Shown here one piece after another: positions 7,341 through 62,485 of a stretch of 64,000 nucleotides of DNA. The stretch is taken from IMG/VR virus record IMGVR_UViG_3300013121_000049, positions 80,253-144,252 of that record; one strand, written 5' to 3'. The stretch is from a virus (lineage: Duplodnaviria > Heunggongvirae > Uroviricota > Caudoviricetes). Under the pieces are notes generated by a model. It was given only the letters and a program-made list of their open reading frames with translations, did no database searches and had not been told where the DNA came from. The stretch's first letter is position 1. The number at the start of each line of letters is the position of its first letter. Made by a program: the position numbers and the translations under genes.

Positions 7341-7370
7341 GACTATGACCTCAACACAGCGGAGTAAAGC

Positions 7371-7951: not shown

Positions 7952-7971
7952 TCATTTTTGACGGAGTAGGT

Positions 7972-7980
7972 TGGTATAAG
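7972..7980 (+). promoter_or_regulatory. promoter-like motif TGGTATAAG (extended -10-like)
   Basis: Exact copy of the recurring motif, 32 nt upstream of the ATG at 8012. Confidence 0.5.
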
Positions 7981-8011
7981 ATAGTACTCAACAAACAAAG
8001 AGGTGGTTAGC

Positions 8012-8224
8012 ATGAACCCTTACCTGAAAGAGATGGAGAAAGTCGCTGGTGTCCTGCAGAACGCGGGCGCTGCAATCAAGAAGCAGCTTACGACTCCCCT
8101 CAAGGTACAAGGGGGCCGCATCGTCAAGCAGATGCACCCCGACGACGAAAAGGCGTTGGCAAAAGCCATCAAGGATAAGATGGCAAATGGTGAAGTAAAG
8201 CACGTCACCGGAATTTTTGATTAA
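8012..8224 (+). CDS. small hypothetical protein (70 aa, Lys-rich)
   Basis: ATG at 8012 preceded by an AAAGAGGTGG ribosome-binding site. It sits between a promoter motif and a terminator. Confidence 0.55.
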   Translation: MNPYLKEMEKVAGVLQNAGAAIKKQLTTPLKVQGGRIVKQMHPDDEKALAKAIKDKMANGEVKHVTGIFD

Positions 8225-8253
8225 AAAGAAAAGGGCCTCGCGCCCTTTTCTTT
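8222..8253. terminator. bidirectional intrinsic terminator (A-tract, AGGGC-ctcgc-GCCCT stem-loop, T-tract)
   Basis: Hairpin at 8232-8246 flanked by AAAAAGAAAA and TTTTCTTT. It lies at the convergent junction with the minus-strand gene 8262..9314. The downstream flank CTTTTCTTTAGCCGRRATTACC is shared with the terminator at 26096-26127. Confidence 0.7.
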
Positions 8254-8261
8254 AGCCGAAA

Positions 8262-48425: not shown

Positions 48426-49308
48426 TCCGCCCCTCCGCACGCATGCCGCCCTTCTGGCCGGTCACGTCCCCAACCCTGAACTGGGCAACCTGCCCTCCCT
48501 CTCCCAGGATTACCTGGAAGAAGAACGCCGCAAGATCGAAGACTACGAGAAAATGGTCAAGCGCATGGGCGGCAAAGACCTCTCGCTGTCTTGCCTGCAC
48601 ATCGCCGCAATGGCCGGCTGGCGCCAGCGCTTCCAGACCGTGGTCGCCGGGGAGGATTGGGCCGGGAAAGGGCTTTGGCTGAACTTTGCCGCCGACACGG
48701 AATACGCGGAACTCCTGCAAGAACTGGGCATGGTGTGGTGTCACTGGAAGCGCTGCAACGAGCCGCACAATCCCCGGGTGATGATCGAGCTGGTGGACCT
48801 GGCCAGCGTCTTCTTCGACAAAATCCTTCAGGACCTCGGCGTTGAGGAATTTCAACCCAACATGCACCCGGACAGCCTGTCGACCAAGTTGGCTGACCTG
48901 GTCAACGCCACCTGGAGCCGCCACTTTGACTTCCTCGCGGAAGAAGGCATCCACGCCTCTGAAGAAACCACAGTCCTTTGCGCTTACCTGACTGAACTCA
49001 GGGAGTGCGTGGCGTCGATGAACCCGATCGAAGGCCTGGGCGTCATCGGTGCAATCCTCGCCATCCTCGGGCTGAACCCCCTGGACCTGTACGGATGGTT
49101 TCTGGGGAAGCAAATCCTCAACCTGTTCCGCCAGGAGCACGGTTACATGGAGGGTACCTACGTCAAGACCTGGGAAAACCGGGAAGACAACGAGCACCTC
49201 GCCACCCTTCTGCAACTCGCCCGGCAAGACGATTACAAGCAATTGCCGGCCAACGATGGCGCGGCGCTGCGTGACAATCTGAGCCGGATCTACCCCAACG
49301 CGGAGTGA
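48418..49308 (+). CDS. hypothetical protein (296 aa)
   Basis: ORF with a GGAG ribosome-binding site. It overlaps the upstream gene by 8 nt. Confidence 0.55.
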   Translation: MSNPPLRTHAALLAGHVPNPELGNLPSLSQDYLEEERRKIEDYEKMVKRMGGKDLSLSCLHIAAMAGWRQRFQTVVAGEDWAGKGLWLNFAADTEYAELLQELGMVWCHWKRCNEPHNPRVMIELVDLASVFFDKILQDLGVEEFQPNMHPDSLSTKLADLVNATWSRHFDFLAEEGIHASEETTVLCAYLTELRECVASMNPIEGLGVIGAILAILGLNPLDLYGWFLGKQILNLFRQEHGYMEGTYVKTWENREDNEHLATLLQLARQDDYKQLPANDGAALRDNLSRIYPNAE

Positions 49309-49314
49309 TCCCCC

Positions 49315-52236
49315 ATGAGCATGTTCCAGATCCTCAAGCGCGAAGTCCCCTTGCGCCAGGGGATCGAGCATTACACCGGGGCCAAGCTGACTTCCTGTGG
49401 AAGTCGTAACAGTCAACTCGAAGACACCTCCTGCCCGTTCTGCGGGCACAACGACTGCTTCAAGTGCCTCAGCGACGAGGATCAGGATATCCTCGTCCAC
49501 TTCCGATGCTATTCCTGCGGCCGGCAGGGCTCGGATACCGTGGCCTTCTACATGGAGCTGCACAACGCGAAGCCGGAGAACCGGGCAAAGAGCATCGAAG
49601 CCATCTATGCCGCCAAGCAGGTAGCCAAAGACTTCGATGTCCCCTGGCAAGACTTCGCCGCCGTGCAGCAAGAGATTCTCGACGTCACCGCCCGGTTCTA
49701 TCACTACTGCCTGACCGGGAACAGCGACCGGATCATCGTGGACGGCTACGACAACCTCAACCCGCTGAAGTACCAGACGGAGTACCGGAAGCACTCCTTG
49801 GAAGCGCTGGATGAGTTCGAGGTCGGGTGGGCGACCAAGTCCAATAGCCTGCAGGACTACCTGGAGGGGCTGGGCTACTCGGTAGAGGATTGCATCTCCG
49901 CCGGCGTCCTGGTTGAGCACAAGGACGAGAAGACCAAGAAGACGAAGGTAAACCCGCTGTTCTGGCCGGGGGTGTTCATCTATCCGCACTTCGTCGACGG
50001 AAAGGTCAGCCATTTCACCCAGAAAAGCCCGGACCCCCTGAAGCCATCCAAGCACCAGATGAAGGCCGAGCATTCCCGCAACGGCTACATGGTGTATGGT
50101 CAGGATGACGTCAAGCATGCCCGTCAGGTGTTCGTCGTTGAAGGGGAGAACGACCGGATATCCCTGTGGGAGCACCTGAAGGGGAAGGCCGCGGTCATCG
50201 CCCTGATCGGTCAACCCTCGAAGAAGCAATGCGACTGGATCGCCGCCAACCTCCGGGACAAGGACGTCTACACCATCTTCGACAATGACGACGCCGGGGA
50301 CAAATACCGGACGGTGTTCCAGGGGCTCAGCCTGGCTCGCCTGAAGCAGTTCAAGGTTCCGGGAAAATGGAAAGACATCGATGAGTACCTGAAGAAGGAT
50401 CCCGCTGCGGAACTGGAGCGTCTTGTCCCTGCCGTCATCAAGCTGGATACCGAAAACGCCCGTACCCCGGAAGACGGCAAGGACGGCACCGGCAGCTTGC
50501 GCGGCGTGTTCGAGGAGGGCAACTGCTACTACCGCCTCAGCATCGACCGGAAGGGAAACGCCGAGCCCGTCAAGGTCAGCAACTTCACCATGCGCCTGCA
50601 ACGGGTCTACGTCTACGAAAAGGACGACACCCGTGAACGCGAGGTCATCATCGTCAAGGAAGATGGCACGGAGGCCCCGGTCCCCTTGCTGGTCGATTCC
50701 CTGGTGAAGACCCGGCTGCAGGACTTCCGCAAAGCCATCGCAGACGTCGCCGACGTCGCGTTCTACGGAGGCGATCAGGACCTGCATGCGGTGTGGGACG
50801 CCGTGTACAACAAGCAGGAGGGGAAAGTCATCCGGGTGCCCATGGAGATAGGCCACCAGTACAACGGCGGATGGGTGTTCCGCGACTGCTACATCGACCC
50901 CAAGGGAGAGGTTTTCCCGGCAACCCGCGACGGGCTGATCCCGGTCCATGACGAATACCTGTTCCCCATGGGTGTCACCATCCAGACCAACGCCCGACGC
51001 AAGCACAGGCAACGTCACGGTATCCCCTCCCTGATCATCCCCTACGACAAGACGGAGGCCGAGCACGAAGCCTTCTTCCAGGAGTTCTGCCACCACTTCA
51101 TCCGGAACATCGGCGACGTTGGCATGGCTGTCTGCATGCTGGCCTGGGCCAAGGCCTGCGCCTTCAGCCACCAGGTCTTTGAGCACTATCGGTTCTTCCC
51201 GTTCCTCTACCTGTGGGGCCGGTTCGGCAAAGGCAAATCCACGGTGTCCTACTGGCTGCTCAACCTGTACGGAATGCGCGGCATCAGCGAAAACAGCCTG
51301 TCCCGCCTGGAGAGCGGCGTCGGCTTCAATCGCATGATGGCGACCTACAGTTCCCTGCCCGTCCTGCTGGAGGAGATGCGGGCAAACAAGGAAGCGTCCG
51401 ACCTACACGGCACCATCCGCTCCTGGTACAACCGGGTGCCCCGCCCCATGGGCGACCGCCGCGACGCCTCCGTGATCGTCAGCCAGCCCGTCCGCGCCTG
51501 CCTGATGTTCAACGGGGAGGACGTGCTGACCGACCCGGCGGCGCGATCACGGTGCATCGAGTTCCAGTTCCCCCCGGAGGAGAAGCGGGACCTGGATGTC
51601 TCCTACACCTGGATTGAAGGCCACGCGGAAGAACTGCCGTCCATCGGTCTCCGCTGGATCCGGGAGAGCCTCACCACGGACTACGAGGCGCTGTTTGCCG
51701 ACATGAAGCGGGTGGAACGCATGCTGCTGGCCGGGGCGACCAAGGACCGCCGCGTCGCCCAGCAGTGGAGCCTGATCGGCGTATTCGCAGACCATCTGTT
51801 CTCCGACCTGGGCCTGGACCCCGTCCAGTACAGTCTGGAGGCTTTCCTGATCGCCGCCTGCAAGGGGAGGTCGGAGGACATCCGCGAGGAGAACATCGTC
51901 ACCCAGTTCTTCCAGATGGTGGAGGGTATCCAGGTACAGAAAAACTCGCCGATCATGGTTGGCGAGCACTTGCGTGTCGCCGGGGACCAGATATTCCTGT
52001 GGGTGCCCGAGCTCTGGCAGATTTGCCAGCGCGAACGCGAAGCCCTCCGGAACAGCGCCACCACGTTCTCCTCGAAGGCCCTGCTCAATAGCCTGAGGGG
52101 GGAGCCCTACTACCAGGACACGGCGGCTCGCAAGATGGGGATGTCCGGCACCAACCGGAAAGTCGTCATTCTGCGCCTGGAAGAGGGTATTCCTGACAGT
52201 TTGAAGGCCATCGCGGCCCTCGCCGAAGCCGAGTAG
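49315..52236 (+). CDS. DNA primase fused to a helicase: Zn-binding domain, TOPRIM domain, and a C-terminal P-loop NTPase
   Basis: CHC2-type Zn finger (SCPFCGHNDCFKC...CYSCGRQG). TOPRIM acidic motifs (VFVVEGENDRISL, TIFDNDDAGDKY). Walker A GRFGKGKST. Confidence 0.88.
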   Translation: MSMFQILKREVPLRQGIEHYTGAKLTSCGSRNSQLEDTSCPFCGHNDCFKCLSDEDQDILVHFRCYSCGRQGSDTVAFYMELHNAKPENRAKSIEAIYAAKQVAKDFDVPWQDFAAVQQEILDVTARFYHYCLTGNSDRIIVDGYDNLNPLKYQTEYRKHSLEALDEFEVGWATKSNSLQDYLEGLGYSVEDCISAGVLVEHKDEKTKKTKVNPLFWPGVFIYPHFVDGKVSHFTQKSPDPLKPSKHQMKAEHSRNGYMVYGQDDVKHARQVFVVEGENDRISLWEHLKGKAAVIALIGQPSKKQCDWIAANLRDKDVYTIFDNDDAGDKYRTVFQGLSLARLKQFKVPGKWKDIDEYLKKDPAAELERLVPAVIKLDTENARTPEDGKDGTGSLRGVFEEGNCYYRLSIDRKGNAEPVKVSNFTMRLQRVYVYEKDDTREREVIIVKEDGTEAPVPLLVDSLVKTRLQDFRKAIADVADVAFYGGDQDLHAVWDAVYNKQEGKVIRVPMEIGHQYNGGWVFRDCYIDPKGEVFPATRDGLIPVHDEYLFPMGVTIQTNARRKHRQRHGIPSLIIPYDKTEAEHEAFFQEFCHHFIRNIGDVGMAVCMLAWAKACAFSHQVFEHYRFFPFLYLWGRFGKGKSTVSYWLLNLYGMRGISENSLSRLESGVGFNRMMATYSSLPVLLEEMRANKEASDLHGTIRSWYNRVPRPMGDRRDASVIVSQPVRACLMFNGEDVLTDPAARSRCIEFQFPPEEKRDLDVSYTWIEGHAEELPSIGLRWIRESLTTDYEALFADMKRVERMLLAGATKDRRVAQQWSLIGVFADHLFSDLGLDPVQYSLEAFLIAACKGRSEDIREENIVTQFFQMVEGIQVQKNSPIMVGEHLRVAGDQIFLWVPELWQICQREREALRNSATTFSSKALLNSLRGEPYYQDTAARKMGMSGTNRKVVILRLEEGIPDSLKAIAALAEAE

Positions 52237-52620
52237 CCGTTTCGGCTACCTCCGGCTACCTAACTGCTACTTCGCGTTTATCTTCAAGTAGCCGGGCAAA
52301 CCGTTGCGCCCCAACGGTTTCAGCTCTCCGGCTACCTCGGCTACCTCGGCTACCAAAAAAGTATGACGTCATATATACGTACATGTGCGCGTACGGTATT
52401 GACCGCCTAGTCACAGAAAAGTGTTGACATTCTCGTTTTCACTTGATCTAGGATTGTAGGACAATATATATCTCTTATATATATATAGTCTTTTTCAGAA
52501 AGTAGGTAGTAGAGGTAGCCCAAACGCTGAATCCCTTGCGCCCCAAAGATTTGCTCGGCTACCAAAAGGTAAAAACGAAGTAGCAATTAGGTAGCCGAGG
52601 TAGCCCGGCCTCGGGTATAA
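52237..52620. repeat. putative replication origin: GGCTACC iterons (direct and inverted, at least ten copies) flanking an AT-rich core at 52462-52486, plus palindromes TGACGTCA and TAGCCGtttCGGCTA
   Basis: CGGCTACCTCCGGCTACC at 52246. CCGGCTACCTCGGCTACCTCGGCTACC at 52327. GGTAGTAGAGGTAGCC at 52503. GGTAGCCGAGGTAGCC at 52589. Core AATATATATCTCTTATATATATATAG. A duplicated TTGCGCCCCAA. Lies immediately downstream of the primase-helicase gene. Confidence 0.55.
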
Positions 52621-52621
52621 G
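52613..52621 (+). promoter_or_regulatory. promoter-like motif GGGTATAAG
   Basis: Lies 20 nt upstream of the ATG at 52641, which has an AGGAGG ribosome-binding site. Confidence 0.45.
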
Positions 52622-52640
52622 AACGACAGGAGGCATCCTT

Positions 52641-53549
52641 ATGACTGAAACCGTTTACACCACCCCCTCCGGCCGCTTCCGGGTCGACGCTGAGCTGGAT
52701 GACGACGCCGAGAACCCCTGGAAAGACTGCGATACCGGCTTCGAATACCACTTCGAGGCCGGTCGATACATCAGCGACATCAGCAAAGACTTCCCCATGG
52801 ACTGCCACCCAGGCGGCCCGCGCTTCAAGGCCGGCCATCCGGACTACTGGTGGTACCCCGTGTACGCGTACATCCACAGCGGCATCACGGTCTCCCTGTC
52901 TCCGTTCTCCTGCCGCTGGGACTCCGGCGTCCTGGGGTGGGTGGCCGTCAAAAGGCCAAGCCGTGGCGGCGAGTGGCGCCGTCAAAAGGACTTCCTCAAG
53001 TACCTTCAGGGAATGATCGATGTTTACGACGACTACCTCACCGGCAACGTCTACGGATACCTTGTGGTCGATACGAAGACCGGGGACGAACTGGACTCCT
53101 GCTGGGGGTACTACGGAAACGACCACGAAAAGTCCGGGCTGCTGGAAGCAGGAAAAGCCCAGGCTGACTACTACGAATCCCAACTGGAGATCTGCATGAA
53201 CACTCGCCCCGTCCACGACAAGGACACCCTTTACCCCTTCTTCTGGGTCACCGCTGTCGTCCAGATAGAAGAGCCCGACTCGCCCGGCAAGTTCTACTAC
53301 CGCGACGCCGAGACCGATGATGACGCCACGCATTTCGGCGTCTACCGCTACAACCCGCCGGGCGCCGACGGCATCAGCGTTTGCGACCACATCTGTGACT
53401 GCCCTACCCGGCCGGTCGCCGAGCGGATCCGGGACACACTGGACCTGCTGCGCAACAGCATCAACGGTATCCTGCCCTGGCTCCCCGAAGAGACCGAGGC
53501 CAAGCGCAAGAATGCGCTGTCTCTTTACCAGACCGGGGATAAGTCATGA
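52641..53549 (+). CDS. hypothetical protein (302 aa), Trp/Tyr/Asp-rich
   Basis: ORF with a strong ribosome-binding site. It is the first gene after the origin-like region. Confidence 0.6.
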   Translation: MTETVYTTPSGRFRVDAELDDDAENPWKDCDTGFEYHFEAGRYISDISKDFPMDCHPGGPRFKAGHPDYWWYPVYAYIHSGITVSLSPFSCRWDSGVLGWVAVKRPSRGGEWRRQKDFLKYLQGMIDVYDDYLTGNVYGYLVVDTKTGDELDSCWGYYGNDHEKSGLLEAGKAQADYYESQLEICMNTRPVHDKDTLYPFFWVTAVVQIEEPDSPGKFYYRDAETDDDATHFGVYRYNPPGADGISVCDHICDCPTRPVAERIRDTLDLLRNSINGILPWLPEETEAKRKNALSLYQTGDKS

Positions 53550-53920
53550 GCGAGAAAAGTCACGTCTCCATGGAGCAGCACGCCTGCCTGGTCTGCACCA
53601 AGCTCTTTGACACCGGCGCCATCTTGCTGGATAAGCGTCTTCAAGCCAGCATGGACAACACTACGGTAACCGGGTGGGGTCTCTGCCCGGAACATCAGGC
53701 CAAGTGGGACGAAGGGTACATCGCCCTTGTCGAAGCCACGCCTGGGAACCCCCCTGGGCGCACCGGTCGCCTTGCCCATATCCGCCGGGAAGCTTGGGGG
53801 AAACTTTTCGACGTTCCTCCCCCCAGTCACCACGGCAAGCCCCTGCCCTTGGCCTTCATCGAGCCCGAGGCTTTCGAAAAGCTTGCCGCCCTTGCCACCC
53901 ACACGGACAATCCGGAATGA
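53546..53920 (+). CDS. Zn-finger protein (124 aa)
   Basis: Cys pattern CLVC...CPEH. ATGA overlap with the upstream gene. Confidence 0.55.
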   Translation: MSEKSHVSMEQHACLVCTKLFDTGAILLDKRLQASMDNTTVTGWGLCPEHQAKWDEGYIALVEATPGNPPGRTGRLAHIRREAWGKLFDVPPPSHHGKPLPLAFIEPEAFEKLAALATHTDNPE

Positions 53921-54909
53921 AATACGAACACACCATCGACTTCACTACCGGCGACGGCCTGGGCATCCTCACCTTGAAGCCCGTGAACGGGGTGGCCGAC
54001 GAAAAAACCCGCGACCTGATTCGCAAGCTGATCGCGCGGTGCCCTGATGGCTGCAAGACTCTGCATGTGTTCTTGCAGCCGCTCGGGAAAAACTCCTGGG
54101 CTTTTCGTATCATGCAGAAAGTGGGTGTCACATGGTCGACTCTGGTCTTCGAGGAGTTCACCGATGCCGGCTTCGGCAACATCCTCTTCATGGCCAAAGC
54201 GCTGGCCTGGGCGGAGGCCGGGACAGTGATCGTGGAGACCCGTATCCCTGCCTACAGTCGCCGTGAAGACCTCATTCCGTGGGTCATCTCCATGTCCCGG
54301 CAGTGCCTGATGTTCCACCCGGACGACGACCCGGCAGACGTCATCCGCAGTTTGACAGGCGAACCCTTGTTCACCTCGGAGGAGTGCGTCGTCCTGCGCC
54401 AGCAGATCGAGAAGATGCGTGCAGACTGGGAGGATGACCTGTACGTCGTGCTCAATGCCTTTGCCGCCGGTTTCGGCCGAGACGGCTTCGGAGTGGGATA
54501 CCTTGATGCGAGGAAGGCGGTGCTCTACTCGGAAGACGAGGAGAAACGGATCCACGACTACTTCACCGAGCAGGTCAAGCAAGCCGCTACCCTGCTGGCG
54601 TCCATCAAGGATACTGTGAATGCGGAAGGCCCGGGATACCCGACCGTGTCTCAGGCACATCTGTTGACTATCCTGGCCGACCGCACAGCGACCCGCGACG
54701 TCCTTTCGCATCTGGAGCCTGTCCTGGAAGACCCGCCTCCGCGGAAGACCCGCATCACCGACCGGCTACACGGCATCATCAACGATATGATCCGCAGCAA
54801 CGTTGGTACGTTCTCTTCCGCGTACCATGCCTCCGTGCACAAATCCGCCAGCCATTACTTGCGTGTCCTGGAGAATCCCAGTGGCATCTCGTCCAAGATC
54901 CCCGATTGA
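53917..54909 (+). CDS. hypothetical protein (330 aa)
   Basis: ORF 53674..54909, trimmed to the ATG at 53917 that forms an ATGA overlap. Confidence 0.55.
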   Translation: MKYEHTIDFTTGDGLGILTLKPVNGVADEKTRDLIRKLIARCPDGCKTLHVFLQPLGKNSWAFRIMQKVGVTWSTLVFEEFTDAGFGNILFMAKALAWAEAGTVIVETRIPAYSRREDLIPWVISMSRQCLMFHPDDDPADVIRSLTGEPLFTSEECVVLRQQIEKMRADWEDDLYVVLNAFAAGFGRDGFGVGYLDARKAVLYSEDEEKRIHDYFTEQVKQAATLLASIKDTVNAEGPGYPTVSQAHLLTILADRTATRDVLSHLEPVLEDPPPRKTRITDRLHGIINDMIRSNVGTFSSAYHASVHKSASHYLRVLENPSGISSKIPD

Positions 54910-54976
54910 GACGCACTTGCTGATCCTGACCCTGTTCAGGACGCATGTCTGGCTTACCGCGCCGCTGGTCCACCGC

Positions 54977-55228
54977 ATGCTGACACGTCATGGCTTTGAA
55001 TATTCGCTGCGGTCCACGCAGCGATTCATTGCCGACATGACAAGGACCGGCATGCTGGTTGTCCACCCGGAGGACCCGCAGCCATCGGAACACATGCGGC
55101 GCGGCCTCAACCCCGACCATCCGGTTGTCCGGGCGTGGGTGACCGGCGAACCGGTGCCCTACCCGACGTTCAAACAATCCGTTTCCCTGAGCCGCGGCCC
55201 GCGGCTCCCTCTTCAGGTGAATCCATGA
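54977..55228 (+). CDS. small hypothetical protein (about 83 aa; possible HTH); start uncertain (a TTG at 54917 is an alternative)
   Basis: ORF 54803..55228. Its upstream part overlaps the previous gene. Its stop forms an ATGA overlap with the GHKL gene. Confidence 0.3.
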   Translation: MLTRHGFEYSLRSTQRFIADMTRTGMLVVHPEDPQPSEHMRRGLNPDHPVVRAWVTGEPVPYPTFKQSVSLSRGPRLPLQVNP

Positions 55229-57117
55229 GCAACATCTCCATGCAGGTCTCCACGTCCAAGCTGATGCAGAGCCTGACCTATGCCTTCAACTCCCCGCGGT
55301 CTGTGCTCGGCGAGCTCCTGCAAAACTCCCGCCGGGCAAAAGCGAAAAACATCGTGCTGACCGTCGAGATGACCTTCTTGCGGCCGGATGGCGAACCTCT
55401 GGTAGTCACGCTGGGCCGCGATGAATGGGACGCTGTTTCCAGCGACTTCATGAACGCCGCGTACACCAGCCATGTTCGTCGAGATCTGAAGAACACCACC
55501 CTGACCTCATTGAGCTTCGAGGTCTGCGACGACGGCTGCGGCATCGACGACTTCCAGAAGCTCTTCTGCCTGGCCGACTCCGGCTGGTCGGACGACGTGA
55601 TGGAGGCGGAAGGCCCCTACGGCCTGGGGTTCTTCTCGGCTATCGTCAGCGCACCGCGTATCCTGTTGTCCAGCCGGGGCATTCGCCTGGACGTCAACTC
55701 CGCCGCGCTCATCTCCGGCAATGGCGTCGCCATTACGGAGACGCACACAGAGGACACGGGGAAGACGGTTGTCCGCCTTGAGGGAATTGATGCCTCCCGG
55801 ATGATCTCCGGTAACCTCACGGTGGACTCCTACGCCTACTCCAAGATGTGCTACGCCAATCTGGTCGAATACATCCAGAAGCTGGTCCAGGCGTTCCCTG
55901 TCCCGGTCCGCCTCCCCGACGGCTACCGCATCCAGTCTCCCTTTGCGGATATCCCCGGACGCCACGGTGTCGCCCTGCCCTGCGGCAGTCGAGCTATTTT
56001 CGGCCGCCCGGTAACAGGTCTCACTGCGTTCCGCAAGCCCGAGCAGGAAGCTGAGTTCTGGAAGCGGTACGTTCGCTATGCCGGCTCAATGTCCACCAGC
56101 GTGATGTACAGCCTGCAGAGCTTGCCTATTGAGGTATCCACCACCGGCATGCTGCCATCGCACGGCAGCCGGTCCCGTCGGTACTACCACGCCATGGTGC
56201 ATCTCAACTCTCGCAGCTACCGGGGCCGCCTGCCGGACCGCAGCCACATTTACGGCGAAGACGAACGCAGTGCGGACCTCACGGCTATTCGGGAGGACCT
56301 TTACGGCATGGTGGCGAAGCGGCGGATTGACCGCGAAGCCCCGCAGTTTGGCGACAACGTCTGGGCAGACGCCGCCATCCGCTGGTTGATGCCCATCTTT
56401 TCGGGCAGGTCCGTAGTGCACGGAATGGTGCCCATGATCGAGATGGTTCCGTCGTCTATCTGCATGGGACCGCGCTTGGGGTCACCCCATCGTTTTCAAG
56501 GCAGCGATACCCTGGCCAAGACAATGGATCTGGCCAGACTGCTCGGGGCAAGCCGCCAAATCCTCTGCCGGGACATGCTGTCGTCCGACGGAAGCTGCCC
56601 CTTGACCACCCCGGAAACCATGGTGCTGGTCGCGTCGTTTTCTTACGTAGTGGACACTGTATTCACCGAGGTTTACCCGGAAGTCCCTGTGACCACGGTA
56701 TCCTCTGTGGTAGAAGAGACAAGGGCTATCGTCAACCGAATTCAAGACCGCAAAGACGAGGCTCCGATTGTCATTCGCGCAGGTCTCCCGGAGTTCGTTT
56801 TTCACGAAGACCCGGTCCCCGCCATGTTCATCATCGGTAACCGCGCGTATCTTCCGAAACGACCGGGGATCACCCAGGAAGTTGCCGGCAAGCGATTGGC
56901 GCATATCCACCGGACGTCCTCTTACCCGAGCGCTCACCTCAAGGAGTTTGTGGCGGCGGCCTTGAAAGGCATGGGCCTGGACGAGGGGTTCCTGCTCAAG
57001 GAGTTCCGTGACAACCTCAACGATGACAGCGAGTTTCGCCAGCTGATTTCCGGCGGGGCTTTTACCCTCACCTTTGATGACAAGGGAGAACTGACGTATG
57101 TCGCAAGAGTACGGTAG
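55225..57117 (+). CDS. MutL-like GHKL-family ATPase (630 aa)
   Basis: N-box ELLQNSRRAKAK (compare MutL ELVENSLDAGAT; the Asp is replaced by Arg). G1 box VCDDGCGID (compare DNGCGI). G2 box PYGLGFFSAIVSA (compare GFRGEALASIS). Its size matches MutL. Confidence 0.7.
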   Translation: MSNISMQVSTSKLMQSLTYAFNSPRSVLGELLQNSRRAKAKNIVLTVEMTFLRPDGEPLVVTLGRDEWDAVSSDFMNAAYTSHVRRDLKNTTLTSLSFEVCDDGCGIDDFQKLFCLADSGWSDDVMEAEGPYGLGFFSAIVSAPRILLSSRGIRLDVNSAALISGNGVAITETHTEDTGKTVVRLEGIDASRMISGNLTVDSYAYSKMCYANLVEYIQKLVQAFPVPVRLPDGYRIQSPFADIPGRHGVALPCGSRAIFGRPVTGLTAFRKPEQEAEFWKRYVRYAGSMSTSVMYSLQSLPIEVSTTGMLPSHGSRSRRYYHAMVHLNSRSYRGRLPDRSHIYGEDERSADLTAIREDLYGMVAKRRIDREAPQFGDNVWADAAIRWLMPIFSGRSVVHGMVPMIEMVPSSICMGPRLGSPHRFQGSDTLAKTMDLARLLGASRQILCRDMLSSDGSCPLTTPETMVLVASFSYVVDTVFTEVYPEVPVTTVSSVVEETRAIVNRIQDRKDEAPIVIRAGLPEFVFHEDPVPAMFIIGNRAYLPKRPGITQEVAGKRLAHIHRTSSYPSAHLKEFVAAALKGMGLDEGFLLKEFRDNLNDDSEFRQLISGGAFTLTFDDKGELTYVARVR

Positions 57118-58630
57118 CCGTGCGCCTCGCCGCCGGTCCAGCCTGTCTGTGCTTCAGGAGCCCGGCGACCAGGTCACCGTCACCGTAGGCCAGGACACCG
57201 TAAAGGTGTCCGCGTCAGCCGACGATCCGCCGTGGGACAGAGAGCCTGTCCCCGTCTTTGACCTCCCGGACGAACCCGTGGTTCCTTCCCGACTGGCGGC
57301 GGAAAAGCCGGCTGAGAAGAAGCCCAAGAAAATCCTGATCCGCGACATGACGGCGGATCAGGTCTACGCGGCCGTGGAAGAACGCGGCAAGGTCACGCCG
57401 TCCCTGCAGGCCAGATTGAAGGAGATCGAGGACTTTTCCCAACTGTCCCCCCGCTGGTGCGAAAAGATTTGCCAGGCGCCTTGCGGAAAGAACCCCAACA
57501 CCACGGTTCGCGGCGACGCGGACATTGTCATCCTCACGTCGGTCAAATCCAGCGGCTCCCGCTTCAAGACCGGCGACGAGGAGGACAAGAAGCGTATCGA
57601 GGTCTGGTCTTTCATTGCCAACCGCGTGGCGCCGGACCTGCGCATCAAGGTCGTCTACGGCATGATCTGCCGCCCGGAGTTCCCCGACGGAACGCCGGAA
57701 AAAGACCGCAAGGTCAGCATGAGCAAGATCAAGCCGTGCTTTGCCTACCAGGAGCATTACCTGCGGACGCACCGGCCCAAGGTCATCATCGCCACCAGCG
57801 CGGCCGACCTTGGCCTGCTGGGCATCAAGGTGTCGATGAACAAGGGCTTGTCCAGCATCCAGGAATGGAACGGCATCCCCGTGGTGGTGACGCTGAACGT
57901 CGCACAAACCATGATGATCCGCCAGAACCAGCAGGGCGGTCGATGGGGCGTCGACATGTTCTTCCTCATCCAGAAGGACCTGGAGAAGGCCGCACGGATT
58001 GCCCGCGGCGAGTTCAACCCGGTAGGGCGATCCCCGGTGGACGTGATGAACTGGATGCGGTCCACAGGGCAACTGAAGGTTCTGGACACCCTGCAGAAAG
58101 TCCGAGAGTTCTGCATGCACGCGGCGTCCCTGCCGGCCAACAAGATGCTGACCTTCGACATCGAGTCGACGGGGCTGGATCCCTGGGCGGAAGACGCGCG
58201 CATCCTGACCATCCAGTTCGGCCTGACGGTCAACGGCAGGTCGGACGGGTTTGTCGTCCCCCTCTGGCACCGGGACAACCGGTTCTACAACCCCGACGAC
58301 GCATGGACGCTGGTTGCCATGGTCCTGACGGCTGACGTCAGCAAGGCCGGCCACGACGGGCGATTCGACATCCGCTACATCCAGGTCACGACGGGCGTCC
58401 GTGTCCGTAACTATCGGCTGGACACGTTGCTGCTCTTGCACTCGCGATCCAGCGGGCTGCAGAAATGCTACGGTCTGAAGAAAGCCGTCTGGGACGAAAT
58501 ACCGGAAAGCGGTCTTGGCGGGTACGACGACGTGATCGTCGAGAAGACCCCTGAAGAAGCGCTTGAGGATGACCCCGAAGACCTGGCCGACAACCCATTG
58601 GAGGAGCCTATTGAAGCCGCTCAATCTTGA
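57098..58630 (+). CDS. DNA polymerase I-family protein, N-terminal part: a domain of unknown identity (possibly UDG-like) plus 3'-5' exonuclease motifs Exo I and Exo II
   Basis: Exo I motif MLTFDIESTGLDPW. It overlaps the GHKL gene by 20 nt. The Exo III motif is absent here and is found at the N-terminus of the 59474 gene. Confidence 0.75.
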   Translation: MSQEYGSRAPRRRSSLSVLQEPGDQVTVTVGQDTVKVSASADDPPWDREPVPVFDLPDEPVVPSRLAAEKPAEKKPKKILIRDMTADQVYAAVEERGKVTPSLQARLKEIEDFSQLSPRWCEKICQAPCGKNPNTTVRGDADIVILTSVKSSGSRFKTGDEEDKKRIEVWSFIANRVAPDLRIKVVYGMICRPEFPDGTPEKDRKVSMSKIKPCFAYQEHYLRTHRPKVIIATSAADLGLLGIKVSMNKGLSSIQEWNGIPVVVTLNVAQTMMIRQNQQGGRWGVDMFFLIQKDLEKAARIARGEFNPVGRSPVDVMNWMRSTGQLKVLDTLQKVREFCMHAASLPANKMLTFDIESTGLDPWAEDARILTIQFGLTVNGRSDGFVVPLWHRDNRFYNPDDAWTLVAMVLTADVSKAGHDGRFDIRYIQVTTGVRVRNYRLDTLLLLHSRSSGLQKCYGLKKAVWDEIPESGLGGYDDVIVEKTPEEALEDDPEDLADNPLEEPIEAAQS

Positions 58631-58634
58631 TGGC

Positions 58635-59090
58635 ATGCTAGGGGGACTGTCCGACTGGACCCTCCCCATGCCCGCCATCGACACGAACCAGCCAGCCCTT
58701 ATCGGTGGGCAAACCGCAGTATTCATCCGCCAGGACCAGATCGGCCCTAACGTGGTCCTGTACTTTTGCAAACAGTCGTCGATCGAGGTGTCCCCTTTCA
58801 AGATCGACGGCACGCCGTACAGCGCCGGAGACATCGCCTTGATGGGGTTGTCCGGTGTAGCCAGCGATTCCCCGGTAGCCAATGGCAGCGCCAATACCGA
58901 CACGATCTACATCGTGATGCGGCGCGGCTCCTACAAGGTGGTCCATGATTTGAAGGAGGTGCTCGCCGAGAGCACCTTGCTCGGTGTTCGTCCGGAGGGG
59001 CTTCTTGAACTGCAGGTGGGACTGCTCAACGAAGCCCCGACGGCGATTCTCAGCGCGGAAGTGCTCAACGTCGATTCCGTCTTGCACTAG
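58635..59090 (+). CDS. hypothetical protein (151 aa), encoded between the two DNA polymerase fragments
   Basis: ORF 58563..59090, trimmed to the ATG at 58635. The ribosome-binding site is weak. Confidence 0.4.
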   Translation: MLGGLSDWTLPMPAIDTNQPALIGGQTAVFIRQDQIGPNVVLYFCKQSSIEVSPFKIDGTPYSAGDIALMGLSGVASDSPVANGSANTDTIYIVMRRGSYKVVHDLKEVLAESTLLGVRPEGLLELQVGLLNEAPTAILSAEVLNVDSVLH

Positions 59091-59415
59091 GCGGTTGGCC
59101 GTCGTCCTGGTAAGCCTCAATGAGCAGGCTCAGGACTTCCTCCAGCCGCTTTTCCGCCGCCAAGAGGCGATCGTCTACGGCCTTGTGGCGTAATGCCTCC
59201 ATTTCCTTGTAATGCTCGATGTGGGTGCGAAGCTCCTCTACGGTAGCTTCCACCCGGCTTTTCCACGTCTCCTCTTCGATCAGATCCTTCTTTTTTTGCC
59301 GGAAGTAATTCACGCCATTCCATAGGATGGTGACGACTCCCGAGATGAAGCCCACGATGGCGAGAACATACCCCATCAGGTCTTTTGTGGTATCAGGATT
59401 AGGAGGAGCAGCCAT
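59065..59415 (-). CDS. single-pass membrane protein with a cytoplasmic coiled coil (116 aa); the only minus-strand gene in the plus-strand replication cluster
   Basis: Transmembrane helix LMGYVLAIVGFISGVVTILW followed by charged heptad-like EEETWKSRVEATVEELRTHIEHYKEMEALRH. Confidence 0.5.
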   Translation of the reverse strand: MAAPPNPDTTKDLMGYVLAIVGFISGVVTILWNGVNYFRQKKKDLIEEETWKSRVEATVEELRTHIEHYKEMEALRHKAVDDRLLAAEKRLEEVLSLLIEAYQDDGQPPSARRNRR

Positions 59416-59473
59416 TTTTGCTAGCCTTTCTTGCGGGAGGTTTTGATGATTTTACCCCATAGGAGATGTCCGT

Positions 59474-61132
59474 ATGGCTAAGGCGAAAAACATTGCCTTT
59501 GAAAACGTGGACTTCCACGACCTGTGCAATTACGCGGGGACGGATGGCATCGTGACCCTGGAGATCATGAAGCGGATCTGGCCGGACGTAACCCGCAAAC
59601 CGATCTACCGGTATTTCTTCCAGAACGGCGAGGTCAAGGACATCGTCCTGCCGTCCATTGTCGAGGAGATGGATACCGTCAAGATGCCTGCCCACGAATT
59701 CCTCACGGACATGGAGGTTGAGGGCATGCCCTACGACAAGGAGCGCGCCGAGATCATGGGCACGGCGATGCGCCGGGAGATCGAGAGCCTGGAGCGTCGC
59801 ATCCACGACTTCATCGACCCCGGCTACAACCTGGATTCGGACAAGGATTTGACGGCCCTGCTCTATACGCCGCAGGGATTCAACCTCAAGTCGCCGTTCA
59901 AGACGAAGAAGGGCGGCGAAGCCACCAGCTACGAAGCTCTGGAAGTCCTGATTGGCAACTACCCGGAGCACGAAGCCTGGCTGAAGCCGCTGGCTCGCCG
60001 CCGCAAGGTCGCCGGCATCTACCGGGGCTTCATCGAGACCTACCGGGAAAAATACGTGCGCCGCGACGGCAAGGTGCACGCCAGCTACAACTTGTTCGGG
60101 ACGAGTTCACACCGCATTTCGTCGAACGATCCGAACATGCTCAACCTGCCGGCTTGGCGGTCCAGCAAACCATACGACCTGCGCAGCCTGTATACCGTGC
60201 CGCGCAAGATGTCGCCGGACGGCCTGAACGTCATCAACGAAATCTTCGCCTTCATCACGATGGACTTCTCTTCTTGCGAAGTGAAGATCTTGGCGGCGCT
60301 CTGCGAAGACGAGGGGCTGATCCAGGCCTGCCGGGAGGGCAAGGATTTCCATACGTACACCTTCAGTACGATTTCCGGCATCCCGTACGACGACATTCGC
60401 AAGGTACTGAAGGCCAGCGAAGCCGCCCTGAAAGCAGACCCGACTCTGGCCAAACTCCATGAGGAGTATAGTGATCAGAGGCAAGCCTATAAGGCAACGA
60501 CCTTTGGACTTATCTATGGGTCCTCTAATGAAGCGATTGCTACTGGTATCGGCAGGCCCATTGATGAGGTCAACAAGATCATCGAGGCGTACTTCACGAC
60601 GTTCCCGAAGATCAAGACGTTCATCGAAAACGCGCACCGCATGGCGATCCACAATCACTACCTGGTGACGCCGTTCGGTCAGCGCAAGCAAGCCGCCGGC
60701 ACCCTGCCGTGCTTCCGCAAGACGGCGGTCTACAACGCCAGCCTGCGTAACGCCCAGAACTTCCTGGTGCAGAGCACCGCATCGACGTTGGGTCTGCTGG
60801 TCTTCACCGAGATCAACAAGAAACTGCGCGAGATGGGCGGCGCCGTGATCTGCACGGTGTACGACTCCTGGGAAGGCTACGTCCCGATTTCCCGACTGGC
60901 GGAAGCTGTCGAGATGGGCTTTTACTACATGAACGATTGGCCGCAACAGCAATGGAGCTGGCTGACGTTCCCGATTGGCGCCGACGCGGAAGTCGGCATC
61001 AACTGGGGCAAGTCGCTGCAAGAAGTGAAGCGCGGCGTGACCCAGGAACAGTGCCTGAAGGCCGTGGAGGAGTCCCGGCATCTTCAGGAAAAATACGACC
61101 AACAAATGTGGGACGCCGCCTACGCGGCCTAA
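59474..61132 (+). CDS. DNA polymerase I-family polymerase domain (552 aa), with Exo III at its N-terminus
   Basis: Exo III YxxxD (CNYAGTDGIVTLEI). Motif A ITMDFSSCEVKILA. Motif B RQAYKATTFGLIYGSS. Motif C ICTVYDSWEG. GGAG ribosome-binding site. Confidence 0.88.
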   Translation: MAKAKNIAFENVDFHDLCNYAGTDGIVTLEIMKRIWPDVTRKPIYRYFFQNGEVKDIVLPSIVEEMDTVKMPAHEFLTDMEVEGMPYDKERAEIMGTAMRREIESLERRIHDFIDPGYNLDSDKDLTALLYTPQGFNLKSPFKTKKGGEATSYEALEVLIGNYPEHEAWLKPLARRRKVAGIYRGFIETYREKYVRRDGKVHASYNLFGTSSHRISSNDPNMLNLPAWRSSKPYDLRSLYTVPRKMSPDGLNVINEIFAFITMDFSSCEVKILAALCEDEGLIQACREGKDFHTYTFSTISGIPYDDIRKVLKASEAALKADPTLAKLHEEYSDQRQAYKATTFGLIYGSSNEAIATGIGRPIDEVNKIIEAYFTTFPKIKTFIENAHRMAIHNHYLVTPFGQRKQAAGTLPCFRKTAVYNASLRNAQNFLVQSTASTLGLLVFTEINKKLREMGGAVICTVYDSWEGYVPISRLAEAVEMGFYYMNDWPQQQWSWLTFPIGADAEVGINWGKSLQEVKRGVTQEQCLKAVEESRHLQEKYDQQMWDAAYAA

Positions 61133-61147
61133 CCACGGAGATCCTCA

Positions 61148-62050
61148 ATGACTGGTTTTCTGATGTTCTTCTCGATTGTGTTCGCTGTCTGGGCTATCTG
61201 CTGCAAGGTGTTCAAATCCGACCAGCACGCCCCGGGCATCCTCAAGCTGCCGGTTGCGTTGCCTGCAGCTCTCTCCGCAGTCATGCTGCTGGCCTCGCTG
61301 GCCAGCCTGTTCAACCCTTTCGTGACCATTGGCCAAACCCAGGTGGGCGTTCTGAAGCAGTGGGGGCGCATCGCTTCGGACGACGGCCTGTCGCCCGGCC
61401 TGCACACCGTCATCCCCGTCATGCAGACCGTGGACATCTGGGACGTATCCTTCACCAAGACTGCCGGGAAATCCGATGCTTCCAGCCGCGACGTGCAGCG
61501 CACGACGACGGAGTGGGCGCTGACCTGGCACCTTGATCCGAAAGCTGTGGTTCCCTTGGCCAAGCGTTCCGGGAAGGACTTCGAGACGACGCTGATCCAG
61601 CCCGCCGTGCAGGAATCCCTGAAGTCGGTGACCGCCAAGTTCACCGCGGAAAACCTGATCGCCCAGCGGGAGGACGTGCGCAGCCAGGTCGACGCCCTGC
61701 TCAACGAAAAGCTCAGCAAGTACGGCATCCGCATCGACCAGTTCGCCATCATGAACTTCGACTTCAGCCGCCAGTTTGACAGCGCGGTCGAGGCCAAGCA
61801 GCAGGCCGAGCAAATGGCGCTGAAGGCCAAGAATGACCTGGACCGCGTGAAGATCGAAGCCGAGCAGAAGGTCGCCCAGGCCCAGGCGGAGGCCGACGCC
61901 TTGCGGGCCCAGCGCGAGCAGATCACCCCCGAGCTTCTGGAGCTTCGCCGCGTGCAAGTCGCCCAGGAAGCCGTTGCCAAGTGGGATGGCCGCCTGCCGA
62001 CAACCAACGCCGGCGGCGCGCTGCCCTTCCTTGACCTCGTCAAGAAGTAA
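61148..62050 (+). CDS. SPFH/Band-7 (prohibitin/HflKC-like) membrane protein
   Basis: N-terminal transmembrane helix (FLMFFSIVFAVWAICC). SPFH core. C-terminal prohibitin-like coiled coil (AVEAKQQAEQMALKAKNDLDRVKIEAEQKVAQAQAEADALRA). Confidence 0.8.
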   Translation: MTGFLMFFSIVFAVWAICCKVFKSDQHAPGILKLPVALPAALSAVMLLASLASLFNPFVTIGQTQVGVLKQWGRIASDDGLSPGLHTVIPVMQTVDIWDVSFTKTAGKSDASSRDVQRTTTEWALTWHLDPKAVVPLAKRSGKDFETTLIQPAVQESLKSVTAKFTAENLIAQREDVRSQVDALLNEKLSKYGIRIDQFAIMNFDFSRQFDSAVEAKQQAEQMALKAKNDLDRVKIEAEQKVAQAQAEADALRAQREQITPELLELRRVQVAQEAVAKWDGRLPTTNAGGALPFLDLVKK

Positions 62051-62053
62051 CCC

Positions 62054-62485
62054 ATGCGCCCCGGGTCTCCCCGGGGCACGGAGTCTGCCGTGAGAACCCG
62101 TACTTTCCACGAAGACCTGTTCTTCGAGCACATGAAGCCCTACCGCCCGGAAGGCGTCGAGAAGAACGCGCTGAATATCTGCCTGGACTCCAACCCCATG
62201 CTGGAGACCTACGGCGCAGACTATGAGTTTGTCCTGAAGGCCGATCCGAACTACCTGTGGACACTGCTGGAGGCAGACGGCGCTCTGTACATCACGTCCG
62301 GTCGGCACTTCGTCAACCGGATCGGCTACTACATCACCGAACTGCCTCACCATGGTCTACACTTGGAATTCCGCATGGGTCGCGACGAGCCCGCTCTGAC
62401 GGCGGTAGGGTTGAACGCCCGGAAAAAGACGTTGGACCGGATGATCGAGACCTACCGCAAGAACCACGCCGGAGAGATGTCATGA
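62054..62485 (+). CDS. hypothetical protein (143 aa)
   Basis: ORF located 3 nt after the upstream stop. Confidence 0.5.
   Translation: MRPGSPRGTESAVRTRTFHEDLFFEHMKPYRPEGVEKNALNICLDSNPMLETYGADYEFVLKADPNYLWTLLEADGALYITSGRHFVNRIGYYITELPHHGLHLEFRMGRDEPALTAVGLNARKKTLDRMIETYRKNHAGEMS

What the first reader, a model, noticed from the sequence alone, without database searches (positions are those of the whole stretch)
55225..57117. MutL-like GHKL ATPase with a substituted N-box, translationally coupled to the DNA polymerase
The Bergerat-fold motifs align best to MutL (ELVENSLDA, DNGCGI and GFRGEALASIS equivalents). The conserved N-box Asp is replaced by Arg (ELLQNSRR), which may alter ATP-Mg binding. 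The gene ends inside the polymerase gene (20 nt overlap). It closes a five-gene operon (52641-57117) of otherwise unknown proteins that starts at the origin-like region. This could be a phage replication-fidelity or replisome-remodelling module, or an anti-defence ATPase.
Basis: partly seen in the sequence, partly recalled or inferred. Interest (0 to 1): 0.65.

Follow-up and report, generated by a model that had tools for sequence, protein, structure and literature searches.

The report
Phage GHKL clamp-type ATPase, not MutL
The gene is real and encodes a two-domain GHKL ATPase, but it is not a MutL: it is a divergent phage copy of a large, unnamed and unstudied family from conjugative elements, in which the odd "RR" ATP-site motif is the rule and the gene often overlaps a replication-enzyme gene.

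The parts
55225..57117 (+). Gene for a 630-aa GHKL (GHL/MORC-class) ATPase, a divergent phage member of the unnamed 'ELMQNARRAGA' family
   Evidence: ORF; GC3 periodicity; homologues; model; fold matches
55215..55228 (+). RBS AGGTGA (55215-55220), start ATG 55225, and ATGA overlap with the upstream ORF's stop (TGA 55226-55228)
55312..55344 (+). N-box, residues 30-40, ELLQNSRRAKA: E30 (general base), N34 (Mg), and R36/R37 in place of the x-Asp of GHL proteins
   Evidence: E30, N34 and R37 invariant, R36 98% in A3; 137 of 155 family sequences match the N-box pattern and nearly all of those read RR; D at N+3 in MutL and HtpG, R in EnvZ
55354..55509 (+). Lineage-specific insertion (residues ~44-95) between the N-box and G1 box. 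It is absent from ICE and plasmid members; a shorter one is present in the related phage L009
   Evidence: alignments; occupancy 0.1 for query residues 61-90
55528..55545 (+). G1 box, DDGCGI (D102, G104, G106)
   Evidence: D102 99%, G104 100%, G106 99%
55579..55638 (+). ATP-lid region: family motif SGW (residues 119-121), E129, and G2 box GPYGLGFFS (residues 130-138), which is Hsp90-like (FGVGFYS)
   Evidence: conservation; aligned to Hsp83 FGVGFYSAYLVADRVTV and to HtpG
55822..56334 (+). Second, transducer-like alpha/beta domain (residues ~200-370), basic (net +9, pI 9.7). It contains Q298, H326 and the invariant LPDR motif (residues 336-339; nt 56230-56241)
56335..56994 (+). Divergent C-terminal region (residues ~371-590). 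It is poorly modelled and lacks the family's GHW motif (98-99% conserved)
   Evidence: pLDDT below 50; gap at the HW columns; profile matches only residues 1-478 plus a short second stretch
56995..57114 (+). C-terminal helix plus beta-hairpin (residues ~591-630, ISGGAFTLTFDDKGELTYV), shared with the family
   Evidence: pLDDT 74-91; aligned to the family C-terminus LxGxxFxVxxxxxGxxxV
57083..57117 (+). Junction with the polymerase gene: RBS AGGGAGA 57083-57089, ATG 57098, GHKL stop TAG 57115-57117 (20-nt overlap)
   Evidence: GC3
57098..58630 (+). Downstream gene: N-terminal fragment of a split family-A DNA polymerase (UDG-like region plus 3'-5' exonuclease motifs I/II)
   Evidence: Pfam DNA_pol_A_exo1, profile positions 4-108 of 173; 34% identity to phage Arash 'uracil DNA glycosylase' gp168c
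59474..61132 (+). C-terminal polymerase fragment (YAGTDGIVTL, which reads as the exonuclease III motif, plus the DNA_pol_A domain)
   Evidence: Pfam DNA_pol_A E 1.4e-52; translation; motif reading from own knowledge of Klenow YAAEDADVTL
52641..55228 (+). Four upstream genes of unknown function, chained by 4-nt overlaps (52641-53549, 53546-53920, 53917-54909, and ~54917/54977-55228; the start of the last is uncertain)
   Evidence: ORFs; PHROG 6186/23974 and 11852, all of unknown function; start options; homologues of two of them sit between primase and GHKL in L009
49315..52236 (+). Primase (Zn-ribbon + Toprim) with a large C-terminal domain, upstream of the module
   Evidence: Pfam Toprim_2, PHROG primase and primase/helicase; 51% identical in L009

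Best explanation
The gene encodes a soluble two-domain ATPase of the GHL/MORC class: a Bergerat ATP-binding domain followed by a transducer-like domain. It is a divergent phage member of a large, unnamed family carried mainly by MOBH-type integrative conjugative elements and large plasmids of Proteobacteria.

The likely mechanism, by analogy with every characterised protein of this architecture, has four steps.
1. ATP binds between the N-box (E30, N34), D102 and the two Gly boxes.
2. The lid closes and two N-domains dimerise.
3. The second domain, probably through the invariant Arg of LPDR (R339), senses the gamma-phosphate.
4. Hydrolysis by an E30-activated water re-opens the clamp.

The family's Arg-Arg at N+2/N+3 replaces the GHL Asp with a basic residue, as in histidine-kinase N-boxes. 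It is a conserved part of the site, not a defect.

The gene is repeatedly placed next to replication genes and is often translationally coupled to them: a Toprim primase in ICEs, the polymerase exonuclease fragment here. The clamp therefore most likely works on DNA or on replisome proteins when the mobile element starts or carries out its own replication.

Shown: the gene, the fold class, family membership, motif conservation and the gene contexts. Inferred: ATPase activity, dimeric clamp action, the role of R339, and the replication-linked target.
For: - **Gene and coupling:**
- **Family size:** 3254 cluster representatives at E<1e-3 and 841 at E<1e-30, typically 530-560 aa and full-length. 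The E[LM][LM]QNARRAGA N-box is nearly universal.
- **Conserved residues:** invariant or near-invariant E30, N34, R36, R37, D102, G104, G106, S119, W121, G133, G135, S150, Q298, H326, P337-D338-R339, all kept in the window protein.
- **Model:** pLDDT above 85 for most of residues 1-370 with the 143-sequence alignment.
- **Sequence profile:** Hsp90 1.8e-10 and MutL 2.4e-5; hhalign HtpG 97.7% and MutL 96.5%.
- **Plasmid and genome contexts:** 82 plasmids with MobH/TraD/toprim/RNR/DUF932 or ICE-replication modules. 446 loci in one-genome-per-species bacteria. Among the 80 loci kept there is a conserved array: AcaB-like | two unknown genes, GHKL, Toprim primase, DUF932, FlhC-like, TraI_2. In 9 of the 11 ICE loci inspected the primase ATG lies 13 nt before the GHKL stop.
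- **Phage contexts:** L002 has RNA ligase, dUTPase, RNR and PolA. L012 has RNase H and SMC_N; L014 has Metallophos, a RecA-like protein and a PolA-exo protein. L009 is syntenic with the window, with the primase 51% identical.
- **Physical properties:** the second domain is basic (+9, pI 9.7) and there is no TM segment.
Against: - There is no biochemical or genetic datum for any member of the family, and the literature searches found nothing.
- The window protein lacks three residues or motifs strongly conserved in the family: R238 is S, G299 is S, and GHW is absent. Its C-terminal 220 residues are unmodelled, so it may have diverged in function.
- GHKL-pol adjacency could not be checked in a second phage, because the relevant contigs end at the wrong place.
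- The ICE neighbours RadC, DUF932 and primase are also typical of establishment or anti-restriction regions, so the context does not separate replication from anti-defence.
- No partner gene is shared between the ICE and phage contexts.
- The family as a whole is acidic (median pI 5.0), which argues against general DNA coating.
Confidence: 0.55

Rival explanations
1. It is an anti-defence or exclusion-protection ATPase of mobile elements, functionally like T4 rIIA (N-terminal GHKL domain plus a variable C-terminal domain). It would be expressed early to counter a host abortive-infection or restriction system, rather than to act in replication.
For: In the viral structure library the best matches include RIIA proteins (Delftia phage PhiW-14, Sulfitobacter phage; E ~1e-7). 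The family has a conserved N-terminal two-domain core and variable C-termini. Its ICE neighbours RadC, DUF932 and a plasmid-type primase are typical of regions that enter the recipient first. From own knowledge, and from the title and abstract of PMC11541004 as listed, such regions are rich in anti-defence genes. Jumbo-phage rIIA is described as a poorly understood counter-defence GHKL protein (PMC7824862).
Against: There is no sequence-level membership in rIIA: hhalign probability is 5.6% against T4 rIIA, and none of 51 family members hits an rIIA PHROG. No rIIB-like partner was seen next to the gene. No TM or membrane-association signal is present. The only PADLOC hit is a generic GHKL match (TmtA, E 0.006). 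Tight overlap with primase or polymerase genes is not explained by this reading.
Confidence: 0.2
2. It is an Hsp90/sacsin-like chaperone that uses its ATP cycle on protein clients, for example to assemble the split polymerase or other replisome parts, rather than on DNA.
For: The best sequence-profile matches are Hsp90-family N-domains (Hsp83, TRAP1, HtpG, Grp94). The hhalign match to HtpG includes the pre-N-box helix. TRAP1 is the top Foldseek hit, with 469 aligned columns. There are weak sacsin N-terminal hits (Pfam SACS, NF047352). The polymerase here is split into fragments.
Confidence: 0.15
3. It is a true MutL-type mismatch-repair or fidelity factor working with the phage polymerase.
For: The N-box and its flank resemble MutL (ELVENSLDAGAT against ELLQNSRRAKAK). 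MutL-NTD is among the top fold matches. The gene is adjacent to the proofreading-exonuclease fragment.
Against: There is no MutL C-terminal dimerisation or endonuclease domain or motif. TIGR00585 scores are far below its cut-off. Hsp90 scores better than MutL. No MutS-like gene turned up among the genes scanned around it. The family's usual home is ICEs, next to a primase.
Confidence: 0.05
4. It is a catalytically dead GHKL-fold scaffold, because the N-box Asp is lost.
For: Asp at N+3 is near-universal in GHL proteins (MutL and HtpG). The Pfam score for the window protein is below threshold.
Against: The replacement is invariant across a very large family, together with every other catalytic residue. 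That pattern indicates selection on an active site. Histidine kinases, which bind ATP-Mg, normally carry a basic residue at N+3 (EnvZ NAAR; general rule from own knowledge).
Confidence: 0.05

Closest known systems
Hsp90 family (HtpG, TRAP1, Grp94) and the sacsin N-terminal ATPase repeat
   Same: It gives the best sequence-profile similarity over the Bergerat domain. This includes the helix before the N-box (xxFxxxxxxLxELxxNA) and the G2 box FGxGFxS. TRAP1 is the top Foldseek hit across two domains. There are weak SACS and NF047352 hits.
   Different: The N-box reads RR instead of xD. No Hsp90 middle or C-terminal domains are detectable by sequence. All curated Hsp90, HtpG and sacsin models score far below their cut-offs. 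The genomic setting is mobile-element replication genes, not proteostasis.
MutL / MLH N-terminal ATPase (LN40)
   Different: There is no MutL C-terminal dimerisation or endonuclease domain, no DQHA(X)2E(X)4E motif, and no DNA_mis_repair Pfam hit. The G2 box is not GFRGEAL.
MORC / SMCHD1 and type II topoisomerase ATPase modules (GyrB, ParE, topo VI-B, phage and ASFV topo II)
   Different: There are no Toprim, CW, coiled-coil or hinge domains. There is no sequence-level family membership. The C-terminal region is unique.
Phage T4 rIIA family
   Same: It is the only well-known phage-specific GHKL protein with a variable C-terminal domain. It is structurally among the best viral matches (PMC7824862).
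   Different: hhalign probability is 5.6% and there is no rIIA PHROG hit. No rIIB neighbour was seen next to the gene. The protein is predicted soluble.
Unnamed 'ATP-binding protein' family of ICEs and plasmids (e.g. WP_227893412.1 Burkholderia vietnamiensis, WP_316704315.1 Piscinibacter plasmid, WP_221696623.1 Enterobacter ludwigii plasmid; partly phrog_6203)
   Same: This is the family the window protein belongs to. It shares all core motifs, the two-domain N-terminal 370 residues and the C-terminal hairpin.
   Different: The window copy has a ~45-aa insertion after the N-box and a divergent residue 371-590 region without the GHW motif; R238 is S and G299 is S. It lies in a phage next to a polymerase rather than in an ICE next to a primase.

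Membership tests
GHKL (Bergerat-fold) ATPase superfamily | Motif I (ExxxN), motif II (DxGxG), motif III (GxxGxG lid) and motif IV (conserved Thr), in this order, on an alpha/beta sandwich | tested here: met
   E30, N34, D102-G104-G106, G133-G135 and T181 are conserved. HATPase_c_3 scores above its cut-off in typical family members but below it in the window protein. Fold matches.
GHL/MORC class (GHKL + transducer, S5-domain-2-like) | A second alpha/beta domain packed on the ATPase domain that supplies a basic residue to the gamma-phosphate | tested here: inconclusive
MutL | C-terminal dimerisation domain (MutL_C) and, in endonuclease-type MutL, DQHA(X)2E(X)4E | tested here: not met
   No Pfam MutL_C or DNA_mis_repair hit at E<=0.1. 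A regex search for the motif found nothing.
MutL | Score above the curated equivalog threshold (TIGR00585, 180 bits) | tested here: not met
   No hit for the window protein. Family members score 16-27 bits, covering the N-box only.
Hsp90 / HtpG | Hsp90 middle and C-terminal domains; score above the HtpG/HSP90 family thresholds | tested here: not met
   Only the N-domain aligns. NF003555 and NF010683 score 21-29 bits, against cut-offs of 371 and 455. No Pfam HSP90 hit.
GHL N-box (MutL, Hsp90, GyrB, MORC) | Asp at N+3 of ExxxNxxD | tested here: not met
   R37 in the window protein is invariant in the family. MutL and HtpG have D there.
T4 rIIA family | Sequence-profile similarity beyond the generic GHKL core; rIIB partner | tested here: not met
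   hhalign probability 5.6%. None of 51 members hits an rIIA PHROG. No rIIB-like hit among the neighbouring genes scanned.
Histidine kinase / anti-sigma kinase | Compact CA domain with a DHp/His or partner-binding domain, and no transducer | tested here: not met
Unnamed 'ELMQNARRAGA' MGE family | N-box E-[LM]-x-Q-N-[AS]-R-R, SGW, FGxGF, QG, H...LPDR, and a ~370-aa two-domain core | tested here: met
   All are present in the window protein except G299, which is S. phmmer E is 7.5e-17 to 1.9e-14 against P0002-P0004. tblastn E is 1e-25 to 1e-17 against ICE, plasmid and viral members.
Unnamed 'ELMQNARRAGA' MGE family | C-terminal domain with the GHW motif (98-99% conserved) | tested here: not met
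   The window protein has a gap at the H and W columns. The family profile matches mainly residues 1-478.

The most novel reading that the evidence does not exclude
The 'RR N-box' proteins form a further, so far unrecognised clade of GHL-class molecular clamps, alongside type II topoisomerases, Hsp90, MutL and MORC/SMCHD1. This clade would be specific to mobile elements. It would use a histidine-kinase-like basic N-box within a transducer-bearing architecture. Its job would be to load or hold the element's own primase or polymerase on incoming or replicating DNA. That would explain why its gene is translationally coupled to a primase in ICEs and to a polymerase subunit in this phage.
Probability: 0.25. 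Interest if true: 0.7.

Novelty: new variant of a known kind. Interest (0 to 1): 0.45.

Why it matters
GHL-class ATPases (topo II, Hsp90, MutL, MORC) are central molecular machines, and every known clade has a distinct, important job. This is a large clade: hundreds to thousands of sequence clusters, 446 loci in one-genome-per-species bacteria, and 82 plasmids. It has a distinctive, invariant change in the ATP site and a private C-terminal domain. It is confined to conjugative elements and a few large phages, and it has no name or experimental study that I could find. Its repeated overlap with primase or polymerase genes gives a concrete, testable hypothesis: that it is a replication or establishment factor of mobile elements. 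For this window alone the result is more modest. The gene is a divergent copy of that family, not a phage MutL.

Tried and rejected
- **Direct searches with the window protein found almost nothing.** There was no PHROG, NCBIfam or PDB sequence hit and no tblastn hit in 50,697 phage records. The word-indexed protein search found only 5-6 relatives. Only the exhaustive HMM search revealed the family.
- **The first AF2 run, on 7 sequences, was unusable** (pLDDT 46.7). The second, on 143 sequences, resolved residues 1-370 only.
- **The afdb50 fold library was unavailable**.
- **rIIA membership was rejected**.
- **MutL membership was rejected**.
- **GHKL-polymerase adjacency could not be confirmed in relatives.** The polN pattern scan found nothing. 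The polC scan found one contig that ends just upstream of polN. L009 ends inside the GHKL gene. The metagenome scan gave no closer relative. The window's own contig is not in the gene index.
- **No ICE partner gene was found in the window.** HMMs of the ICE neighbours (unk204, unk119, DUF932, RadC, AcaB-like) found no counterpart there.
- **The family is absent from complete E. coli genomes** at blastn sensitivity.
- **Literature searches for a description of the family found nothing relevant**.
- **Rfam and tRNA scans of the window were empty**, so there is no evidence that the polymerase split is an intron.
Full report
**1. Is the feature there?**

Yes. The ORF is listed as 55135-57117. The real start is ATG 55225:
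- Third-position GC is 0.77 over 55225-57117.
- It is only 0.53 in this frame for 55135-55224, where the upstream gene's frame shows 0.78.
- AGGTGA lies at 55215-55220.
- The upstream ORF ends at TGA 55226-55228, giving an ATGA overlap.

The gene ends at TAG 57115-57117. The first 80 codons of that gene have coding periodicity in their own frame.

That downstream gene carries the first part of a family-A 3'-5' exonuclease domain (Pfam profile positions 4-108 of 173). It is 34% identical to the 'uracil DNA glycosylase' gp168c of Salmonella phage Arash. The polymerase domain lies in a separate gene at 59474-61132.

Upstream, four genes of unknown function are chained by 4-nt overlaps from 52641. 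They are preceded by a 973-aa primase. The gene therefore sits inside, not at the end of, a replication gene chain.

**2. What is the protein?**

Direct searches say little. Pfam gives a sub-threshold HATPase_c_3 hit (E 5e-4). There is no PHROG, NCBIfam or PDB sequence hit and no tblastn hit in phage records. The word-indexed search found only six relatives at 25-28% identity.

Their alignment already showed that the odd N-box is shared: ELLQNSRRAKA, ELMQNARRAKA, ELLQNARRAGA. An exhaustive profile search then revealed a large family:
- 3254 cluster representatives (50% identity) at E<1e-3, and 841 at E<1e-30.
- Most are 530-560 aa and match end to end.
- 137 of 155 retrieved sequences match the N-box pattern, and nearly all of those read RR; ELMQNARRAGA is the commonest form.

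In a 143-sequence alignment the following are invariant or at least 98% conserved: E30, N34, R36, R37, D102, G104, G106, S119, W121, G133, G135, S150, Q298, H326, P337-D338-R339. All are present in the window protein.

The Arg substitution is therefore a clade signature under strong selection, beside an otherwise complete catalytic set. MutL and HtpG have Asp at N+3. The histidine kinase EnvZ has Arg there (NAAR). From general knowledge, a basic residue at that position is the norm in histidine-kinase N-boxes.

**3. Which GHKL clade?**

*By sequence.* The family profile hits Hsp90-family N-domains best (Hsp83 1.8e-10; TRAP1, HtpG and Grp94 around 1e-6). MutL reaches 2.4e-5, and only through the N-box stretch. 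hhalign gives HtpG 97.7% (E 2.3e-12) and MutL 96.5% (E 8.9e-10), in both cases over the N-domain only. The preceding helix and the G2 box (FGxGFxS) are Hsp90/sacsin-like. Typical members also give weak SACS and sacsin-N hits. No curated model comes near its threshold.

*By structure.* With the deep alignment, AlphaFold models residues 1-370 confidently.
- Foldseek ranks TRAP1 (4e-10), then MutL-NTD (1e-8), then MORC2/3/4 (1e-7).

The protein thus has the GHKL-plus-transducer architecture of the GHL/MORC class, but it belongs to none of the named clades. It has no MutL C-terminal domain and no endonuclease motif. Among viral models, rIIA proteins and phage topo II ATPase subunits are the best matches. 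Profile comparison with T4 rIIA fails (probability 5.6%). No family member hits an rIIA PHROG; 28 of 51 hit phrog_6203, which has no known function.

**4. Where does the family live?**

RefSeq calls the members 'ATP-binding protein'.

*Plasmids.* tblastn finds the family on 82 plasmids, mostly large proteobacterial ones. Two were inspected:
- A Piscinibacter plasmid: DUF1845, GHKL, RNR, toprim protein, DUF932, MobH relaxase, TraD.
- An Enterobacter ludwigii plasmid: an MPF_G ICE-type module with STY4534 ICE replication protein, DUF3275, DUF932, DUF6094 and a helicase.

*Bacterial genomes.* A scan of one genome per species found 446 loci, mostly in beta- and gammaproteobacteria and Nitrospirota. 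I clustered the neighbours in the 80 loci kept. A recurrent ICE array emerged: DUF1173, an integrase-like protein, AlpA and an AcaB-like protein on one strand; then two unknown small genes, GHKL, a Zn-ribbon/DUF7146/Toprim primase, DUF932, an FlhC-like activator and a TraI_2 (MOBH) relaxase on the other. In methanotroph loci RadC follows about 270 nt downstream.

In 9 of the 11 ICE loci inspected, the primase ATG lies 13 nt before the GHKL stop, behind a GGAG-type RBS. This is the same kind of coupling that the window shows with its polymerase gene.

*Phages.* The family is rare here. There is none in 50,697 phage records apart from one partial hit, and there are 8 loci in IMG/VR. Those phage copies sit in replication or recombination modules:
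- L002: RNA ligase, dUTPase, RNR, PolA.
- L012: RNase H, SMC_N.
- L014: Metallophos, a RecA-like protein, a PolA-exo protein.

L009 is a true relative of the window phage. Its primase is 51% identical, homologues of two upstream genes are in the same order, and its GHKL is 32-39% identical with a similar post-N-box insertion. Its contig ends inside the gene.

No neighbour gene is shared between ICE and phage contexts. The ATPase therefore moves as a single-gene module.

**5. How does it probably work?**

Every characterised protein with this architecture is an ATP-gated dimeric clamp. With all catalytic residues conserved, the same cycle is the most economical reading:
1. ATP binding and lid closure.
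2. N-domain dimerisation.
3. Gamma-phosphate sensing by the second domain, where the invariant R339 of LPDR is the obvious candidate.
4. Hydrolysis through E30.

Repeated placement beside primase, polymerase and nucleotide-metabolism genes, and overlap with several of them, points to a role with the element's replication machinery. The basic second domain in the window protein (+9, pI 9.7) and the absence of TM segments point the same way.

This functional part is inference. I give the whole package about 0.55. The fold-class and family assignments alone are above 0.9.

The rivals are:
- Anti-defence or rIIA-like (0.2). The ICE neighbours are also typical of early-entry regions.
- Hsp90-like chaperone of replisome proteins (0.15).
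- True MutL-type fidelity factor (0.05).
- Dead scaffold (0.05).

**6. How is the window copy unusual within the family?**

- It has a ~45-residue insertion between the N-box and G1 box.
- S replaces the 92%-conserved R238 and the 98%-conserved G299.
- It lacks the GHW motif. Its residues 371-590 neither align well nor fold confidently.
- Only the last ~40 residues rejoin the family consensus.

It may therefore have a different partner from the ICE members.

**7. Novelty and score**

GHKL ATPases are well known, and this is not a new kind of machine. However, the clade with the RR N-box, its own C-terminal domain, restriction to mobile elements and coupling to replication enzymes appears undescribed in the literature I could search. 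No curated Pfam or NCBIfam model covers it beyond the generic N-domain.

I rate it a new variant of a known kind, with interest 0.45. The MutL-based story that made the finding attractive is not supported. What replaces it is an uncharacterised but sizeable family with a testable hypothesis.

Noticed in passing
window 52237-52640: The intergenic region between the primase and the gene chain carries 7 copies of GGCTACCT: four on the + strand at 52244-52346 and three on the - strand at 52513-52605. Together they form a 94-nt imperfect inverted repeat around an AT-rich core with TATATATATA (52360-52500). The octamer occurs 15 times in the window, against 1.4 expected. The region looks like an origin, or an operator-controlled promoter, with iteron-like binding sites.
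   Followed up: partly
window 57098-61132: The family-A DNA polymerase is split inside the exonuclease domain. Exo motifs I/II, with a UDG-like N-terminus, lie in 57098-58630. What reads as the Exo III motif (YAGTDGIVTL), plus the polymerase domain, lies in 59474-61132. The ~840-bp spacer holds two small ORFs: 58563-59090 (+) and 59065-59415 (-). The (-) ORF has only weak, sub-threshold family hits. No Rfam intron and no intein or HNH signal was found. Relatives are also split: Arash into three pieces, and L100 with a ~2-kb spacer.
   Followed up: partly
L065, L069, L071, L072, L074, L075, L089, L090, L092 (ICE loci), around the GHKL stop codon: The Toprim primase gene (MQDREYAARIEAVKQ...) starts 13 nt before the GHKL stop, behind a GGAG-type RBS. 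This overlap is conserved across ICEs of different beta-proteobacterial species.
   Followed up: yes
L009 (IMGVR_UViG_3300033066_002242, 95.5 kb), 1-8692: This is the only clear relative of the window phage that I found. The primase is 51% identical, and homologues of window genes 48418-49308, 52641-53549 and 53917-54909 are in the same order. The GHKL gene is cut by the contig end.
   Followed up: partly
window 54917-55228: The small ORF immediately upstream of the GHKL gene (LLILTLFRTHVWLTAPLVHRMLTRHGFEYSLRSTQRFIADMTRTGMLV...) reads like a winged-helix DNA-binding protein. Its start is uncertain (TTG 54917 or ATG 54977). It has no database hit.
   Followed up: no
window 48379-51186 (-), 57215-58903 (-), 61145-62353 (-) and similar: There are very long antisense ORFs opposite real genes. 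These are the usual artefact of 60% GC with high GC3 and are not genes.
   Followed up: no
L004 (P0002 context) and L003 (P0006 context): Some family members lie next to AAA/AAA_5 + DUF6685 + HD_4 genes, or next to DUF1173 + AAA genes. The family may therefore also occur in islands that are not obviously conjugative.
   Followed up: no
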